This document shows, piece after piece, positions 6-3,215 of a stretch of 3,253 bases of DNA. How positions within the stretch are numbered: the first letter of the stretch is position 1; each line of letters opens with the position of its first letter. Source of the stretch: Naegleria gruberi (Eukaryota); assembly GCA_000004985.1 (NCBI GenBank), contig GG739230.1. The stretch is one strand, 5' to 3'. The notes beneath the pieces are model-generated. The model was not told where the DNA came from. It saw only the letters and a program-made list of their open reading frames with translations, and did not search any database. The position numbers and the translations under genes were made by a program.

Positions 6-3000
6 ATGGTTCTTGAATCTGTATTATCTGAAGATAACAAGGTCTATTCAGACGCAAAGTCATACTGTCAACTGTTGTTGACTTGTGCCATTGCTTGTGA
101 AATTTCGTACATGCCTGATCCATTGTACACATTAAACAAGGAGTATTCCCAATTTGAGCATGGTATCAAGAAACTATGTAGTAGTATTACTAATGATATG
201 GACGCAAAGGCAACACTTGAAACAAGATATGTTGTGGCTGATTGTTCTGATGAAAATCGTAAAAGAATTGTTGTAGCAATTAGAGGTTCCTACTCCAAGT
301 CTGATATTTTGACAGATGTAAAGTTGATCCCTGCCATGAATTACTATGGATATGGCGTTTTACATAGTGGCTTCTTGGAAAGAGCCAAATTCATTCCACT
401 TGATTACTTTTTAGAAAAGATTAACGAAGGTTATCAAGTTGTTATTACTGGACACAGCATGGGTGGAGCAGTTGGGGCCATCCTTGCAACGCGATTGATG
501 CAAGCTACTGAAGCAAAGGCCATCAAGAAACCACCAATTCAATTCATTGGTTTTGGAGTTCCCTTGCTGGCTGATGTTAAGTTCAAAGAAAGAATTCTAA
601 AAGATGAACAGTCGAACTATTTCCATTTTTATATCAACGAAAAAGATTGTGTTCCAAGATCTATTAGTATTGTTAGTGAAATTATCAGTCTTTCTGCTGA
701 ATCAGATCTGATTGACCAAGTGTCAAACTTTCTAAAAACTGTTGTGTCGGCAATCTCCAGTATTACAGGAAGGGTTCATAGAGCAGAAATAATTAATTCT
801 GGTATATCTGTTTTCCAGTGGTTTTCTAAAGTAATTGCCAAGGTAATTCACAAATATGCACCACAGTTTTCTCCTTTTGGTAATCACATTCACATTTCCT
901 ATTCTAACAATAAGCAAATAGTTACTGAACATCAAGAGGAAATTTACGATTTAAGCGACAAGTTGGCAGAGATGTTCAGTAGAGAGAAACTGGAAATGAT
1001 TCAACACCACAAAATGACCAATTACTTTCATGAGGTGTTGAAGATTTGTGACTGTTTTGAATTCAAAAAAGATTGCTTTCTCAAAGGTTATTTCAATAAG
1101 AAAGCAGAAAAAATGCAAGATTTGCATGTTCCAGAAAATTGGTCCTTCGTTCCTCTTAGATGGGTTAAGAAGCAAGATGAAAATGCAGATGCCTTTGAAG
1201 GAAAGGAGTGCTACTCTGTTCGTCTGATTGTAAATGAAGCTACCGTTGATGTAAACTTGACACTAATTTCAAAGAAATTTGTGAATTACATTACAAAGGT
1301 TGAGATTATCAATCCTATTTGTCAGCAGGTGAGTGTTCGTGATGAGATGAATGGTGTTACTTATTGCCTAAGCGGAATCGTGAAAGACTTTTGGAAACAT
1401 AATACTTTGCATGTCAAATACCTACAAGTTAAGTTTACAACCCATTTCAACTCTGTTATTTGGGATCTTCCTGTTAGCCATGTAACTCCAGAAGTTGGAC
1501 AAAGTGTAAAGGAGGAGAAAATTTCCAAGTTACCAGTTGACCTCTTGTATATGTATGCTTTGAGTTTTATTTTCGCTACCAGCAAAGTTGAAGATGAATC
1601 GATAAGAGCGAAAAGAAGCAATTTACTCAGATTACTCGGAGATCTTGATGAACTCAATGAAGGGAGTACAATTCCAAAATCCAATATTGACAGTCAAGAG
1701 TTGAATATGAAACTATTAAGAATGTTCTTTGAGGGAACAAACGAGCAAGTTGGAGATTATGGTAAATTGTTCCATCTTAACTTTTCATTTTCCACTGAAA
1801 CAGCTAAATTGAGTGAAGAATCGTTGACTTTTAGAGATTTAGTTGATAAGAAATTTTTAACAGTTCTCCACCATAATTCAGTTCAATGTTCCTTAATTAA
1901 GGAAATGTTTTCTGAAAAGATTGGAATGGGAGCCAGTGCAGCAGGCCTTGGTATTAGCGCTGGTGTTTGTTCTGGTTTACTTTTCGTCCCAGGCATAAAC
2001 CTCTTTGCAATTGGTGCTCTGATAGCAACAGGAGTGGTGAGCTTGGCAAGTTTTGCAGCATTTATGGCCAATTATGTTAGGAAGAATAGAGATGTATTAG
2101 ATTATGAGCAAAATCTTAAAACATTCATGGACAGCTTTTATATAGTCTATTCACACAGTATACCTACTTTGTATCACTTTGAAAAATTGATTTTTGATTG
2201 GACTCGCACCAATTTATTGAAGTATGATGATAATGCTTACATTCTTGACCACTGGTCAGAAGTTTTCGGAAAGGGGTCTACCATTGGTTGGGTCAGTGTC
2301 TCCGAAAGGAAGAAAGTATTGAGAGTGTTGAAATCTGCGTGTATTAACTATCAAATCAGACAAGAATTGATGAAAAACTTCTACGTTGGAGTTGTTGGAA
2401 TGAAGAAATGTGGAAAATCAACATTTGTCGAAAAGTTCCTTCATAGAAATGCTAACGCCTCAAGTATAATAGCTACAACTGAAATTCAAGCATACCCACT
2501 AACAAGTAACTCATCCAATTTTGCTGTTTGGGACTTCCCACACTATGAAAGTCAGGATCATCTCCACAAAGTTCAATTTATTACTTCTCGTTTTTTATTG
2601 GACTATATTGTTGTTGTATACGATGCCCTTTCCAAATGTGATAAAGAAGAATGCAAAGAACATATCAATGTTATCAAACAAAGTAATGATCACAGATTCA
2701 TTGTTTTAATGAACAAGGCAGATGCGTTATATAAGCCAAACATGAATATGACAAAAGACCATTTTGATGACACAAGAAGGGAATGTTCCCTCAAACTTGG
2801 TGTAGATATTTCAAGAGTAATTTTGACCTCAGTTGACCCAGCTATAAATAATATCCACCAATTGAAACCTTGGGGTGTAAACATGATGTCAGAAATAAGA
2901 GATGTAATTTGGGAAGATTTAAAGACAACAGCAAAACGAACAGTTGCAGAGGTTGAACAAGAATGGAATAGTTTGAAGAAGTATGATGCCCTTAAAGTTA

Positions 3001-3215
3001 GCATTGAATTCAGAAGAAAGGGAAAGAATTCCTCCTTTTGCTTCTCTTGGGATAAATTAAAGAATTTGCAATTCAGAGAACTTGTAGAAGAGCTGAAGAA
3101 TGAATTTGATTATGACAATATCAAAATAACCACTAAGAATTCATTAGAAGAGATTTCAGATATGCAACAGTTACTAGAACATGAGGATCATGAATTCATT
3201 GTAGAAAAACAATAA
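6..3215 (+). CDS. Large multidomain protein (1069 aa): N-terminal class 3 lipase (alpha/beta hydrolase), central glycine-zipper transmembrane hairpin, C-terminal IRG/IIGP-like P-loop GTPase with helical tail
   Basis: A 3210-nt uninterrupted ORF from the ATG at 6-8 to the TAA at 3213-3215, followed by a second in-frame TAA. Recognisable catalytic motifs of two enzyme families occur in-frame (GHSMGG, DCVPR; GMKKCGKST, NKAD). Every other ORF in the window is under 110 aa and nested inside it. Only 5 nt lie upstream, so the true start could be further 5' of the window, although the N-terminus aligns sensibly with the start of Lipase_3 domains. Confidence 0.92.
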   Translation: MVLESVLSEDNKVYSDAKSYCQLLLTCAIACEISYMPDPLYTLNKEYSQFEHGIKKLCSSITNDMDAKATLETRYVVADCSDENRKRIVVAIRGSYSKSDILTDVKLIPAMNYYGYGVLHSGFLERAKFIPLDYFLEKINEGYQVVITGHSMGGAVGAILATRLMQATEAKAIKKPPIQFIGFGVPLLADVKFKERILKDEQSNYFHFYINEKDCVPRSISIVSEIISLSAESDLIDQVSNFLKTVVSAISSITGRVHRAEIINSGISVFQWFSKVIAKVIHKYAPQFSPFGNHIHISYSNNKQIVTEHQEEIYDLSDKLAEMFSREKLEMIQHHKMTNYFHEVLKICDCFEFKKDCFLKGYFNKKAEKMQDLHVPENWSFVPLRWVKKQDENADAFEGKECYSVRLIVNEATVDVNLTLISKKFVNYITKVEIINPICQQVSVRDEMNGVTYCLSGIVKDFWKHNTLHVKYLQVKFTTHFNSVIWDLPVSHVTPEVGQSVKEEKISKLPVDLLYMYALSFIFATSKVEDESIRAKRSNLLRLLGDLDELNEGSTIPKSNIDSQELNMKLLRMFFEGTNEQVGDYGKLFHLNFSFSTETAKLSEESLTFRDLVDKKFLTVLHHNSVQCSLIKEMFSEKIGMGASAAGLGISAGVCSGLLFVPGINLFAIGALIATGVVSLASFAAFMANYVRKNRDVLDYEQNLKTFMDSFYIVYSHSIPTLYHFEKLIFDWTRTNLLKYDDNAYILDHWSEVFGKGSTIGWVSVSERKKVLRVLKSACINYQIRQELMKNFYVGVVGMKKCGKSTFVEKFLHRNANASSIIATTEIQAYPLTSNSSNFAVWDFPHYESQDHLHKVQFITSRFLLDYIVVVYDALSKCDKEECKEHINVIKQSNDHRFIVLMNKADALYKPNMNMTKDHFDDTRRECSLKLGVDISRVILTSVDPAINNIHQLKPWGVNMMSEIRDVIWEDLKTTAKRTVAEVEQEWNSLKKYDALKVSIEFRRKGKNSSFCFSWDKLKNLQFRELVEELKNEFDYDNIKITTKNSLEEISDMQQLLEHEDHEFIVEKQ
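48..905 (+). other. Lipase class 3 (Lipase_3-like alpha/beta hydrolase) domain, aa ~15-300, probable triad Ser151/Asp214/His(294 or 296)
   Basis: CQLLLTCAIACEISY matches the N-terminal helix typical of this family. RIVVAIRGSYS (nt 264-296) matches the conserved 'VVAFRGT' strand. VVITGHSMGGAVGAILA has the nucleophile elbow GHSMG at nt 450-464 (Ser codon agc at 456-458). FYINEKDCVPRS has the Asp-x-VPR motif (Asp codon gat at 645-647), characteristic of Rhizomucor-type and DAD1/PLA1-type lipases. The His assignment is tentative. Confidence 0.85.
906..1922 (+). other. Central region of unknown function (aa ~301-639), soluble, mixed charge, Cys-containing (ICDCFEFKKDCF)
   Basis: I recognise no diagnostic catalytic motif here. 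There are no long hydrophobic stretches. A Lys-rich patch lies at aa 352-390 (KKDCFLKGYFNKKAEK...RWVKKQ). It could be a lipid/membrane-binding or regulatory linker domain. Confidence 0.3.
1923..2078 (+). other. Predicted transmembrane helical hairpin with glycine-zipper (aa 640-691)
   Basis: GMGASAAGLGISAGVCSGLLF-VPG-INLFAIGALIATGVVSLASFAAFMANYV is about 50 consecutive apolar/small residues. It has a G649xxxG653xxxG657 glycine zipper and a central Pro-Gly turn. It is flanked by the charged residues E638/K639 upstream and RKNRD downstream. This is locally the most GC-rich part of the gene, because of the GCN/GGN codons. Confidence 0.7.
2367..2885 (+). other. P-loop GTPase domain, IRG/IIGP-like (G1 2397-2420 GMKKCGKS; putative switch-I Thr824/825; G3-position WDFPH 2529-2543; G4 NKAD 2712-2723)
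   Basis: Walker A GxxxxGKS/T is preceded by the hydrophobic strand FYVGVV. NKxD, the guanine-specificity motif, is preceded by the hydrophobic strand RFIVLM. G1 to G3 is ~45 aa and G3 to G4 is ~60 aa, matching Ras-superfamily geometry. The W-D-x-P context of G3 and the GKS P-loop resemble immunity-related GTPases. The G3 Gly is replaced by His. Confidence 0.8.
2886..3212 (+). other. C-terminal charged, predicted alpha-helical/coiled-coil tail (aa 961-1069)
   Basis: It has heptad-like charged stretches (EIRDVIWEDLKTTAKRTVAEVEQEWNSLKKYDALK; LQFRELVEELKNEFDYD) and an acidic end (EHEDHEFIVEKQ). It is analogous to the helical C-terminal domains of IRG/dynamin-like GTPases. Confidence 0.45.

What the first reader, a model, noticed from the sequence alone, without database searches (positions are those of the whole stretch)
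2526..2543. G3/switch-II motif lacks the invariant glycine: W-D-F-P-H instead of DxxG
At the position dictated by Ras-like spacing, ~45 aa after the P-loop and ~60 aa before NKAD, the sequence reads FAVWDFPHYES. The hydrophobic strand, Trp-Asp and Pro match the IRG-type 'WDLPG' G3. The glycine that contacts the gamma-phosphate is a histidine (cac, 2541-2543). G1 and G4 are canonical, so nucleotide binding should be retained. The switch-II and hydrolysis mechanism may be altered. That could mean slow intrinsic hydrolysis, a requirement for a partner or dimerisation in trans, or a His acting catalytically. The P-loop is of the 'GKS' rather than 'GMS' type.
Basis: partly seen in the sequence, partly recalled or inferred. 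Interest (0 to 1): 0.6.

Follow-up and report, generated by a model that had tools for sequence, protein, structure and literature searches.

The report
GTPase family with histidine replacing switch glycine
A Naegleria membrane protein that joins a lipase to a GTP-binding domain carries a histidine where almost all GTPases have an essential glycine, and most of its relatives in other protists and in rotifers share this histidine, so it is a selected, untested variant of the GTPase switch and not an error.

Summary
Nucleotides 2526-2543 encode V841-W-D-F-P-H846 of a single 1069-aa ORF (6-3215, +) from Naegleria gruberi. The protein has a class-3 lipase, a beta-sandwich, a hydrophobic hairpin, a G domain and a small C-terminal domain.

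H846 sits exactly where the Gly of DxxG belongs:
- It follows the Asp that ends strand beta3 in a confident AlphaFold model.
- It aligns without gaps to the Gly of EngA, TrmE, Irgb10 and an IIGP-family protein.
- No DxxG exists anywhere in the protein.

The His is not a private change. Among 81 aligned homologues, 60 have D-[FY]-P-H and 13 more distant ones keep D-[FY]-P-G. G1, the switch-I Thr (81/81), the G3 Asp and NKxD all stay conserved. Switch II/alpha2 is more constrained in the His-type members.

The closest named relatives are Era/EngA/EngB-type and IRG GTPases, but the protein belongs to none of them, and the family is uncharacterised.

I infer a working guanine-nucleotide switch with a remodelled switch II. 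The His may take over gamma-phosphate sensing or water positioning, since the Gln-cat position is aromatic. A P-loop Lys (K801) lies at the K+/Arg-finger position. A slow or locked, RGK-like switch is the main rival. None of this has been tested biochemically.

The parts
6..3215 (+). Complete CDS of a 1069-aa lipase-GTPase fusion protein (Naegleria gruberi 'predicted protein')
   Evidence: P0092 is 1069 aa, 100% identical, and lies on a 3253-nt record. Full-length AF2 model has pLDDT 82.7 and pTM 0.80.
270..665 (+). Class-3 lipase core (aa 89-220). GHSMG nucleophile elbow is aa 149-153 (S151, nt 456-458). D214 and H335 complete the putative triad.
1203..1475 (+). All-beta (sandwich-like) middle domain, aa ~400-490, with no family match
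   Evidence: Secondary structure of the full model. No Pfam hit.
1923..2069 (+). Hydrophobic hairpin aa 640-688 (two helices around P662-G-I-N), the presumed membrane anchor
   Evidence: Kyte-Doolittle maxima of about 2.0-2.1. pLDDT is below 50 in the full model.
2373..2885 (+). G domain (aa ~790-960), TRAFAC-class and Era/EngA/EngB/IRG-like
2397..2420 (+). G1/P-loop GMKKCGKS (aa 798-805). K801 (nt 2406-2408) occupies the position three residues before the P-loop Lys.
   Evidence: G798, G803 and K804 are conserved in 81/81 and S805 in 77/81. Position 801 is K in 58 and N in 20.
2475..2477 (+). Switch-I threonine T824 (G2)
   Evidence: Invariant in 81/81.
2532..2543 (+). G3 motif D843-F-P-H846, with His in place of the DxxG glycine (the finding)
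2544..2603 (+). Rest of switch II and helix alpha2 (aa 847-866). Y847 is at the Gln-cat position. S849, K855, Q857, L864 and L865 are co-conserved with the His.
   Evidence: mean column entropy is 1.79 in His-type against 2.32 in Gly-type members, while the rest of the domain gives 1.94 against 2.03.
2712..2723 (+). G4 NKAD (aa 903-906), the guanine-specificity motif
   Evidence: N903 and D906 are each conserved in 70/81.
2994..3209 (+). Small C-terminal alpha/beta domain (aa 997-1068), with no family match
   Evidence: Secondary structure of the full model. No significant Pfam hit.

Best explanation
Shown: the C-terminal G domain of this membrane-anchored lipase-GTPase protein has a G3 motif D-F-P-H, and H846 occupies the position of the DxxG glycine. 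This His is the norm in an uncharacterised eukaryotic family found in Heterolobosea, in rotifer assemblies and on many environmental contigs. The more distant members still carry D-[FY]-P-G. All residues that hold Mg2+ and the phosphates (P-loop GK[ST], switch-I Thr, G3 Asp) and the guanine base (NKxD) are conserved. Switch II/alpha2 is more constrained in His-type than in Gly-type members.

Inferred: the domain still binds GTP/Mg2+ and still senses the gamma-phosphate, because T824 is invariant. It does so with a rebuilt switch II. The backbone NH of residue 846 can still reach the gamma-phosphate. The imidazole adds a polar group next to the gamma-phosphate or the attacking water. It would thereby stand in for the missing Gln/His catalytic residue, since position 847 is aromatic, as in HAS-GTPases, which bring their catalytic group from elsewhere. 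K801 sits at the P-loop position where K+-dependent GTPases have the cation-binding Asn; 20/81 relatives do have Asn there. From my own knowledge, hGBP1 and atlastin carry a cis Arg finger at this position. K801 may therefore supply the activating positive charge in cis.

The GTP state would then control the membrane-bound protein as a whole: lipase access, oligomerisation or partner binding. That link is speculative.
For: Identity of the position:
- beta3 ends at D843, in a model with pLDDT 90.5.
- H846 aligns to the Gly of TrmE, EngA, Irgb10 and an IIGP protein.
- the alignment between DxPH and DxPG members is gapless.
- there is no DxxG in the protein.

Selection:
- H in 60/81 and G in 13/81; D843 79/81, P845 79/81, T824 81/81, G798/G803/K804 81/81, N903 and D906 70/81 each.
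- S849, K855, Q857, L864 and L865 co-vary with His. Switch-II entropy is 1.79 against 2.32, while the rest of the domain gives 1.94 against 2.03.
- DYPH is kept even in members that have lost the lipase Ser.

HAS-type Gln-cat position:
- position 847 is most often F, L or Y in His-type members (41 of the 47 falling in the four commonest residues; S accounts for the other 6).
- (bioRxiv 10.1101/2020.08.16.253419): HAS-GTPases hydrolyse GTP with catalytic groups supplied from other places.

K801:
-.
- (PMC6310460): the counterpart of MnmE Asn226 is usually Gly or Ala, and is Asn or Asp in K+-dependent NTPases.

Fold relatives:
- the K+-dependent Era-like group (EngB, Era, EngA, MnmE, FeoB).
Against: No coordinates, nucleotide-bound model or biochemistry were available, so the direction in which the H846 side chain points is unknown.

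In Ras, replacing this Gly even by Ala (G60A) traps the inactive 'state 1' and drastically impairs intrinsic GTPase activity (PMC4867591). A bulky His could therefore disable the switch instead of helping it.

The position is not absolutely fixed inside the His-type group. N, P, D, R and L occur in 7 sequences, and Pro has no backbone NH at all.

In E. coli Era, a switch-II His (H67) was concluded to be structural, not catalytic.
Confidence: 0.5

Rival explanations
1. Locked or very slow switch (nucleotide-binding pseudoGTPase). The His abolishes the glycine-dependent switch-II movement, so the domain binds GTP or GDP constitutively. It then serves as a structural or assembly module of the lipase protein, as proposed for RGK proteins, whose G3 is DxWE.
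For: G60A Ras is trapped in state 1 with strongly impaired GTPase activity. RGK proteins naturally carry DxWE instead of DxxG and are thought to deviate from the canonical switch (PMC4081519). Switch II/alpha2 is unusually conserved in His-type members, which would fit a fixed interface. The position tolerates N, P, D, R and L in a few members.
Against: The switch-I Thr, whose only known role is Mg2+/gamma-phosphate contact in the GTP state, is invariant in 81/81. The G3 Asp is present in 79/81. Degenerate pseudoGTPases such as EhRabX10 (G3 DTQDME) lose the G2 Thr and other motifs as well. The near-exclusive choice of His, and not any bulky residue, argues for a chemical role.
Confidence: 0.3
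2. Interface residue acting in trans. H846 lies on the face that G domains of IRG, MnmE, dynamin, septin and Toc types use to dimerise across the nucleotide. It would contact the partner subunit, its nucleotide, or another domain of the same protein, so that hydrolysis requires oligomerisation on the membrane.
For: The nearest named families (IRG, MnmE, EngA, Toc, mitofusin) include nucleotide-dependent dimerisers. The protein has a membrane hairpin that would concentrate it in two dimensions. The full-length model has pTM 0.80, which suggests a fixed arrangement of domains.
Against: No dimer model or contact map could be computed. Nothing places H846 at an interface. This reading overlaps with the best explanation and does not exclude it.
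Confidence: 0.15
3. Artefact: a sequencing error, a strain-specific substitution, or a misplaced G3 motif.
For: None found.
Against: His is present in 60/81 independent homologues from different organisms and assemblies. There is no DxxG in the protein. Structure and alignments agree on the position. Gly (GGN) to His (CAY) needs two base changes.
Confidence: 0.01

Closest known systems
Era-like / TEES GTPases (EngA/Der, EngB/YihA/YsxC, Era, MnmE/TrmE, FeoB), which are HAS-GTPases and K+-dependent GTPases
   Different: The G3 Gly is His, and position 801 is Lys in the window protein. NCBIfam equivalog scores are far below their cutoffs (Era 20.3 against 237, YlqF 15.2 against 208). The G domain is fused to a lipase and a membrane hairpin. 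No link to the ribosome is evident.
IRG / p47 immunity-related GTPases (Pfam IIGP, PF05049)
   Same: The 'WDxPx' context matches (window WDFPH against Irgb10 wDlPG). The weakest significant hit of the exhaustive search, P0086 (E 8.8e-4), is a true IIGP protein (6e-41). A His-type-only profile aligns to it at 88% probability, E 3e-6, with H opposite G. IRG structures head the Foldseek list. Both are GKS-type and both act at membranes.
RGK small GTPases (Rad, Gem/Kir, Rem)
   Same: This is a natural family in which the G3 Gly is replaced (DxWE), with a non-canonical switch (PMC4081519). It is a precedent for a conserved non-Gly G3.
   Different: RGK belongs to the Ras-family branch, and the Pfam Ras score for the window is below threshold (18.3 against 21.6). 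The replacing residue is Glu, not His. Switch I is also degenerate in RGK, whereas T824 is invariant here.
GTPases with a catalytic His one residue after the Gly (EF-Tu/IF2/eIF5B 'DxPGH', Sar1, SR-beta)
   Different: Here the His is at the Gly position, not after it. The family alignment is gapless between DxPH and DxPG members, and Gly-type members have no His at +1. The motif is therefore not a PGH that lost its Gly.
Class-3 lipases and the lipase-like plant immune proteins EDS1/PAD4/SAG101 (for the N-terminal domain)
   Different: No known class-3 lipase or EDS1-family protein carries a G domain. A full-text search for 'class 3 lipase' together with 'GTPase domain' returned nothing.

Membership tests
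P-loop GTPase G domain (TRAFAC class; Pfam MMR_HSR1 PF01926) | G1 GxxxxGK[ST] | tested here: met
   GMKKCGKS at aa 798-805. G798, G803 and K804 are conserved in 81/81.
P-loop GTPase G domain (TRAFAC class; Pfam MMR_HSR1 PF01926) | Switch-I Thr (G2) | tested here: met
   T824 is invariant in 81/81.
P-loop GTPase G domain (TRAFAC class; Pfam MMR_HSR1 PF01926) | G3 DxxG at the end of beta3 | tested here: not met
   The motif is DFPH. The Asp is present and the Gly is replaced by His. There is no DxxG in the protein.
P-loop GTPase G domain (TRAFAC class; Pfam MMR_HSR1 PF01926) | G4 [NT]KxD | tested here: met
   NKAD at aa 903-906.
P-loop GTPase G domain (TRAFAC class; Pfam MMR_HSR1 PF01926) | Profile score above the curated cutoff, and the G-domain fold | tested here: met
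   [not shown]
P-loop GTPase G domain (TRAFAC class; Pfam MMR_HSR1 PF01926) | Guanine-nucleotide binding and GTP hydrolysis | not testable with these tools
   This needs biochemistry.
IRG / IIGP (PF05049) | Match to the IIGP profile | tested here: not met
   IIGP is not listed for the window protein at E<=1 or for its G domain at E<=10. The outgroup P0086 scores 141 bits.
IRG / IIGP (PF05049) | G3 'DLPG' with Gly | tested here: not met
   WDFPH aligns to wDlPG and to WDVPG.
IRG / IIGP (PF05049) | Detectable homology of the G domain | tested here: met
   phmmer from the window to P0086 gives E 8.8e-4. hhalign of A4 against P0086 gives 88% probability, E 3e-6. Irgb6 scores 2.9e-5. The similarity is remote and no closer than to EngA, EngB or Era.
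Era / EngA / EngB orthologous groups (NCBIfam equivalogs) | Score above the equivalog cutoff | tested here: not met
   Era NF000908 scores 20.3 against 237, TIGR00436 13.4 against 116, YlqF 15.2-15.9 against 208, and Obg 11-12.7 against 280-300.
HAS-GTPases | Hydrophobic residue at the Gln-cat position (G3 Gly +1) | tested here: met
   Y847 in the window. F is commonest (28), followed by L (7), Y (6) and S (6) among the 60 His-type members.
Cation (K+)-dependent GTPases | Asn or Asp three residues before the P-loop Lys, which ligates the cation | tested here: not met
   The window has K801. The family has K in 58, N in 20, S in 2 and R in 1. The definition comes from PMC6310460.
Cation (K+)-dependent GTPases | K-loop in switch I and K+-stimulated hydrolysis | not testable with these tools
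   This needs a structure with nucleotide, or an assay.
RGK GTPases | Ras-family G domain with G3 DxWE | tested here: not met
   Pfam Ras scores 18.3 against a cutoff of 21.6. The motif is DFPH, not DxWE. RGK is an analogy only.
Class-3 lipase (PF01764) | Profile match, GxSxG nucleophile, and Asp and His of the triad | tested here: met
   Lipase_3 scores 61.3 against 22. GHSMG is at aa 149-153. D214 is present in 28/30 and H335 in 23/30. Activity was not tested.

The most novel reading that the evidence does not exclude
DxPH defines a new catalytic solution among GTPases. The histidine that replaces the 'invariant' switch-II glycine would itself sense the gamma-phosphate and position or activate the attacking water. 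A cis P-loop lysine (K801) would replace the K+ ion or arginine finger. Together they would make a self-sufficient GTPase that gates a membrane-anchored lipase in bacterivorous protists and rotifers. The bootstrap tree does not unite the His-type sequences, so the change may even have arisen more than once.
Probability: 0.25. Interest if true: 0.7.

Novelty: new variant of a known kind. Interest (0 to 1): 0.5.

Why it matters
The Gly of DxxG is one of the few residues treated as near-universal in GTPases. Its backbone NH reads the gamma-phosphate, and even Gly-to-Ala cripples Ras. A whole family keeps every other nucleotide-binding residue but has fixed a His there, and close relatives still carry Gly. 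That gives a natural experiment on what the glycine is needed for, and on how else a switch II can work.

The host protein is also unusual. It is a class-3 lipase tied through a membrane hairpin to a G domain whose nearest named relatives include the immunity-related GTPases. No member has been studied, so the family is a candidate GTP-controlled membrane lipase in amoebae and rotifers.

Tried and rejected
- **Missed DxxG:** rejected. There is none in the protein.
- **'DxPGH that lost its Gly':** rejected. DxPH and DxPG members align without gaps, and Gly-type members have no His at +1.
- **Single origin of His:** the first NJ tree suggested a basal Gly-type grade. With the G3 column removed, 0/100 bootstrap replicates unite all non-Gly sequences, and the window's subgroup is recovered in only 51/100. 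The number of origins is therefore unresolved, and I withdraw the single-origin reading.
- **Circularity in profile A3:** A3 contained the IIGP-family protein P0086, so the IRG scores are inflated. I repeated both with a His-type-only profile, A4.
- **Word-index protein searches:** these found almost nothing (1 and 6 hits). Only the exhaustive search revealed the family.
- **Searches that failed or were empty:**
  - The search for related loci on viral contigs failed because no conserved stretch was available.
  - The afdb50 fold library was unavailable.
  - The look-up of encoding contigs had no record for P0001.
  - PADLOC returned no hit.
- **Literature:** searches for a lipase-GTPase fusion or a G3 His precedent found nothing specific. 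The library is incomplete, so this is weak negative evidence.
- **Side-chain geometry:** the structure tool returns no coordinates, so the geometry of H846 and K801 could not be measured.
Full report
**What is in the window.** The 3253-nt window holds one long ORF (6..3215, +, 1069 aa). All other ORFs are short and lie inside it. It is identical to a Naegleria gruberi 'predicted protein' of 1069 aa recorded on a 3253-nt record (P0092). A second public model of 635 aa (P0001) removes aa 311-744.

Pfam finds a class-3 lipase (aa 89-220, 61.3 bits) and a generic G domain (MMR_HSR1 30.9 bits, Roc 27.9 bits) at aa ~794-906. A full-length AlphaFold model (pLDDT 82.7, pTM 0.80) shows these parts:
- a lipase (to about aa 350);
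- a beta-sandwich (aa ~400-490);
- a helical region;
- a low-confidence hydrophobic hairpin (aa 640-688);
- helices leading into the G domain (aa 790-960);
- a small C-terminal alpha/beta domain (aa 997-1068).

**Check of the observation.** Nt 2526-2543 translate to V841-W-D-F-P-H846, and cac at 2541-2543 is H846. G1 is GMKKCGKS (aa 798-805) and G4 is NKAD (aa 903-906). The spacings are 45 aa (G798 to D843) and 57 aa (H846 to N903).

**Is H846 really at the G3 glycine position?** Four independent lines agree.
1. There is no DxxG anywhere in the 1069 aa.
2. In a confident model of aa 734-1008 (pLDDT 90.5), strand beta3 is aa 839-843 and ends at D843, where the Walker-B/G3 Asp belongs. H846 lies in the loop before helix alpha2.
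3. HMMER aligns 'fAVWDFPHY' to T. maritima TrmE 'fRIVDTAGV'. It aligns the family consensus 'liDyPHf' to EngA 'iiDtPGl/liDtaGl' and to Irgb10 'iwDlPGv'.
4. hhalign of a His-type-only profile against an IIGP-family protein pairs WDFPH with WDVPG.

**Is the His private to this sequence?** No. The word-index search found only the N. gruberi protein itself. An exhaustive HMMER scan of 1.84 billion representatives found 86 homologues, 41 of them at E<=1e-10.
- In a MAFFT alignment of 81 G domains, the column holds H in 60, G in 13, N in 2, P in 2, and D, R, L and a gap once each.
- The neighbouring D843 and P845 are each conserved in 79/81.
- G798, G803 and K804 are conserved in 81/81, S805 in 77/81, and the switch-I T824 in 81/81. 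N903 and D906 are each conserved in 70/81.
- The alignment between D-[FY]-P-H and D-[FY]-P-G members has no gap, so this is a positional replacement.

Named members are a Willaertia magna orthologue (62% identity, DYPHW), proteins in the rotifer assemblies Brachionus plicatilis and Didymodactylos carnosus, and an entry labelled Hordeum vulgare. The rest come from environmental assemblies. Of 30 long homologues, 28 also carry the lipase domain, including the Gly-type P0043, so the fusion is a family trait.

**What changed together with the His.** Columns that separate His-type from Gly-type members cluster in switch II/alpha2: S849, K855, L856, Q857, L864 and L865.
- Mean column entropy of aa 844-866 is 1.79 in size-matched His-type subsamples, against 2.32 in Gly-type members.
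- The rest of the domain gives 1.94 against 2.03.
- The replacement therefore came with a more constrained switch II.
- Position 847, the Gln-cat position, is most often F, L or Y in His-type members, which is the HAS-GTPase signature.
- The P-loop residue three before the Lys is K801. The family has K in 58 and N in 20.
- In MnmE this is Asn226, the K+ ligand. Most P-loop NTPases have Gly or Ala there, and K+-dependent ones have Asn or Asp (PMC6310460).
- From my own knowledge, hGBP1 (R48) and atlastin carry a cis Arg finger at this position.

**Evolutionary direction.** Gly-type sequences are the most distant from the window. In a first NJ tree rooted on the IIGP protein P0086 they formed a basal grade. 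With the G3 column removed, bootstrapping never united all non-Gly sequences (0/100), and it recovered the window's subgroup in 51/100. I can therefore say that DxPG is the state shared with all outgroups. I cannot say whether His arose once or several times. Gly to His needs two base changes, and the one-step intermediates Arg and Asp each occur once in the family. That is anecdotal.

**Nearest known families.**
- Foldseek puts Irgb10, Irgb6, Irga6 and GM4951 first, but their E-values are barely better than those of EF-Tu, GIMAP or Arl13B.
- My first profile (A3) contained P0086, which turned out to be a true IIGP protein (PF05049, 6e-41). Its IRG scores are therefore inflated.
- A His-type-only profile (A4) gives EngA 4e-9, EngB 1.6e-5, Irgb6 2.9e-5, Era 5.5e-5 and TrmE 1.5e-4. 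It gives 88% probability, E 3e-6, against P0086.
- The G domain is thus a divergent member of the Era-like/IRG neighbourhood of TRAFAC GTPases.
- It does not match the IIGP model or any NCBIfam equivalog, and it belongs to no described family.
- No paper describing a lipase-GTPase fusion or a G3 His was found.

**Mechanism: what is shown and what is inferred.** Shown are the position, the conservation, the intact binding residues and the co-constrained switch II.

Inferred is that the domain binds GTP/Mg2+ and still reads the gamma-phosphate, because the invariant T824 has no other known role. The Gln-cat position is aromatic and the His is chosen almost exclusively. My preferred reading is therefore that the imidazole works next to the gamma-phosphate or the attacking water, and that K801 supplies a positive charge in cis.

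The main rival is a locked or slow switch. Ras G60A is trapped in state 1 with strongly impaired GTPase activity (PMC4867591). RGK proteins with DxWE deviate from the canonical switch (PMC4081519). In E. coli Era, a switch-II His was judged structural. A few family members tolerate N, P, D, R or L at this position. Against simple decay, pseudoGTPases such as EhRabX10 also lose the G2 Thr and other motifs, and that is not the case here.

A trans role across a G-domain dimer is also possible. No tool here gave coordinates or a nucleotide-bound model, so these readings cannot be separated computationally.

**Verdict.** It is a conserved family trait in an uncharacterised lipase-GTPase family, which makes it a new variant of a known kind. 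Interest is moderate. It would surprise GTPase specialists and is directly testable with a few mutants, but its functional meaning is still open.

Noticed in passing
window 2406-2408 (K801, P-loop GMKKCGKS): The P-loop residue three before the Lys is Lys here. The family has K in 58/81 and N in 20/81. This is the position of the K+-binding Asn of MnmE-type GTPases. From my own knowledge, it is also the position of the cis Arg finger of hGBP1 and atlastin. It may be a built-in activating charge.
   Followed up: partly
window 456-458 (S151) and homologues in alignment A2: The lipase triad S151/D214/H335 is intact in the window protein. The nucleophile Ser is present in only 19/30 long homologues (G, C, E, R and D also occur). 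Those members still keep DYPH, so some members look like pseudo-lipases with a conserved G domain.
   Followed up: partly
[not shown]
   Followed up: no
window 1923-2069 (aa 640-688): A Gly/Ala-rich hydrophobic segment of about 48 residues has a central P-G-I-N turn, and pLDDT is below 50. It is probably a membrane hairpin that would put the lipase and the G domain on the same side of the membrane.
   Followed up: partly
window 2994-3209 (aa 997-1068) and 1203-1475 (aa ~400-490): The full-length model predicts two confidently folded domains without any Pfam match. One is a small C-terminal alpha/beta domain (strand-strand-helix-helix-strand-helix-strand). The other is a beta-sandwich.
   Followed up: no
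window 936-2237 (aa 311-744): A second public N. gruberi gene model (P0001, 635 aa) removes this 1302-nt stretch as if it were an intron. The stretch is in frame, has no stop codon, is conserved in homologues and is confidently folded. The 1069-aa model (P0092) is the credible one.
   Followed up: partly
L001 1-22805 (contig of the Gly-type relative P0043): This is a gene-dense 32-kb environmental contig, mostly ORFans. It carries a DUF5906 (primase/helicase-like) protein, a PT-TG/colicin-DNase-like protein and an acetyltransferase. It may be giant-virus-like, whereas the contig of P0016 carries eukaryotic CASP/CUX1 and NHL genes.
   Followed up: no
homologues P0023, P0058, P0100, P0028: Family members are annotated in rotifer assemblies (Brachionus plicatilis, Didymodactylos carnosus) and in a Hordeum vulgare cDNA entry. 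The patchy distribution could reflect horizontal transfer or contamination.
   Followed up: no
window 2358-2360 (R785), 2103-2105 (Y700), 2181-2183 (E726): Three residues in the helices that precede the G domain are invariant in 30/30 long homologues. R785 lies in the helix running into beta1. Their role is unknown.
   Followed up: no
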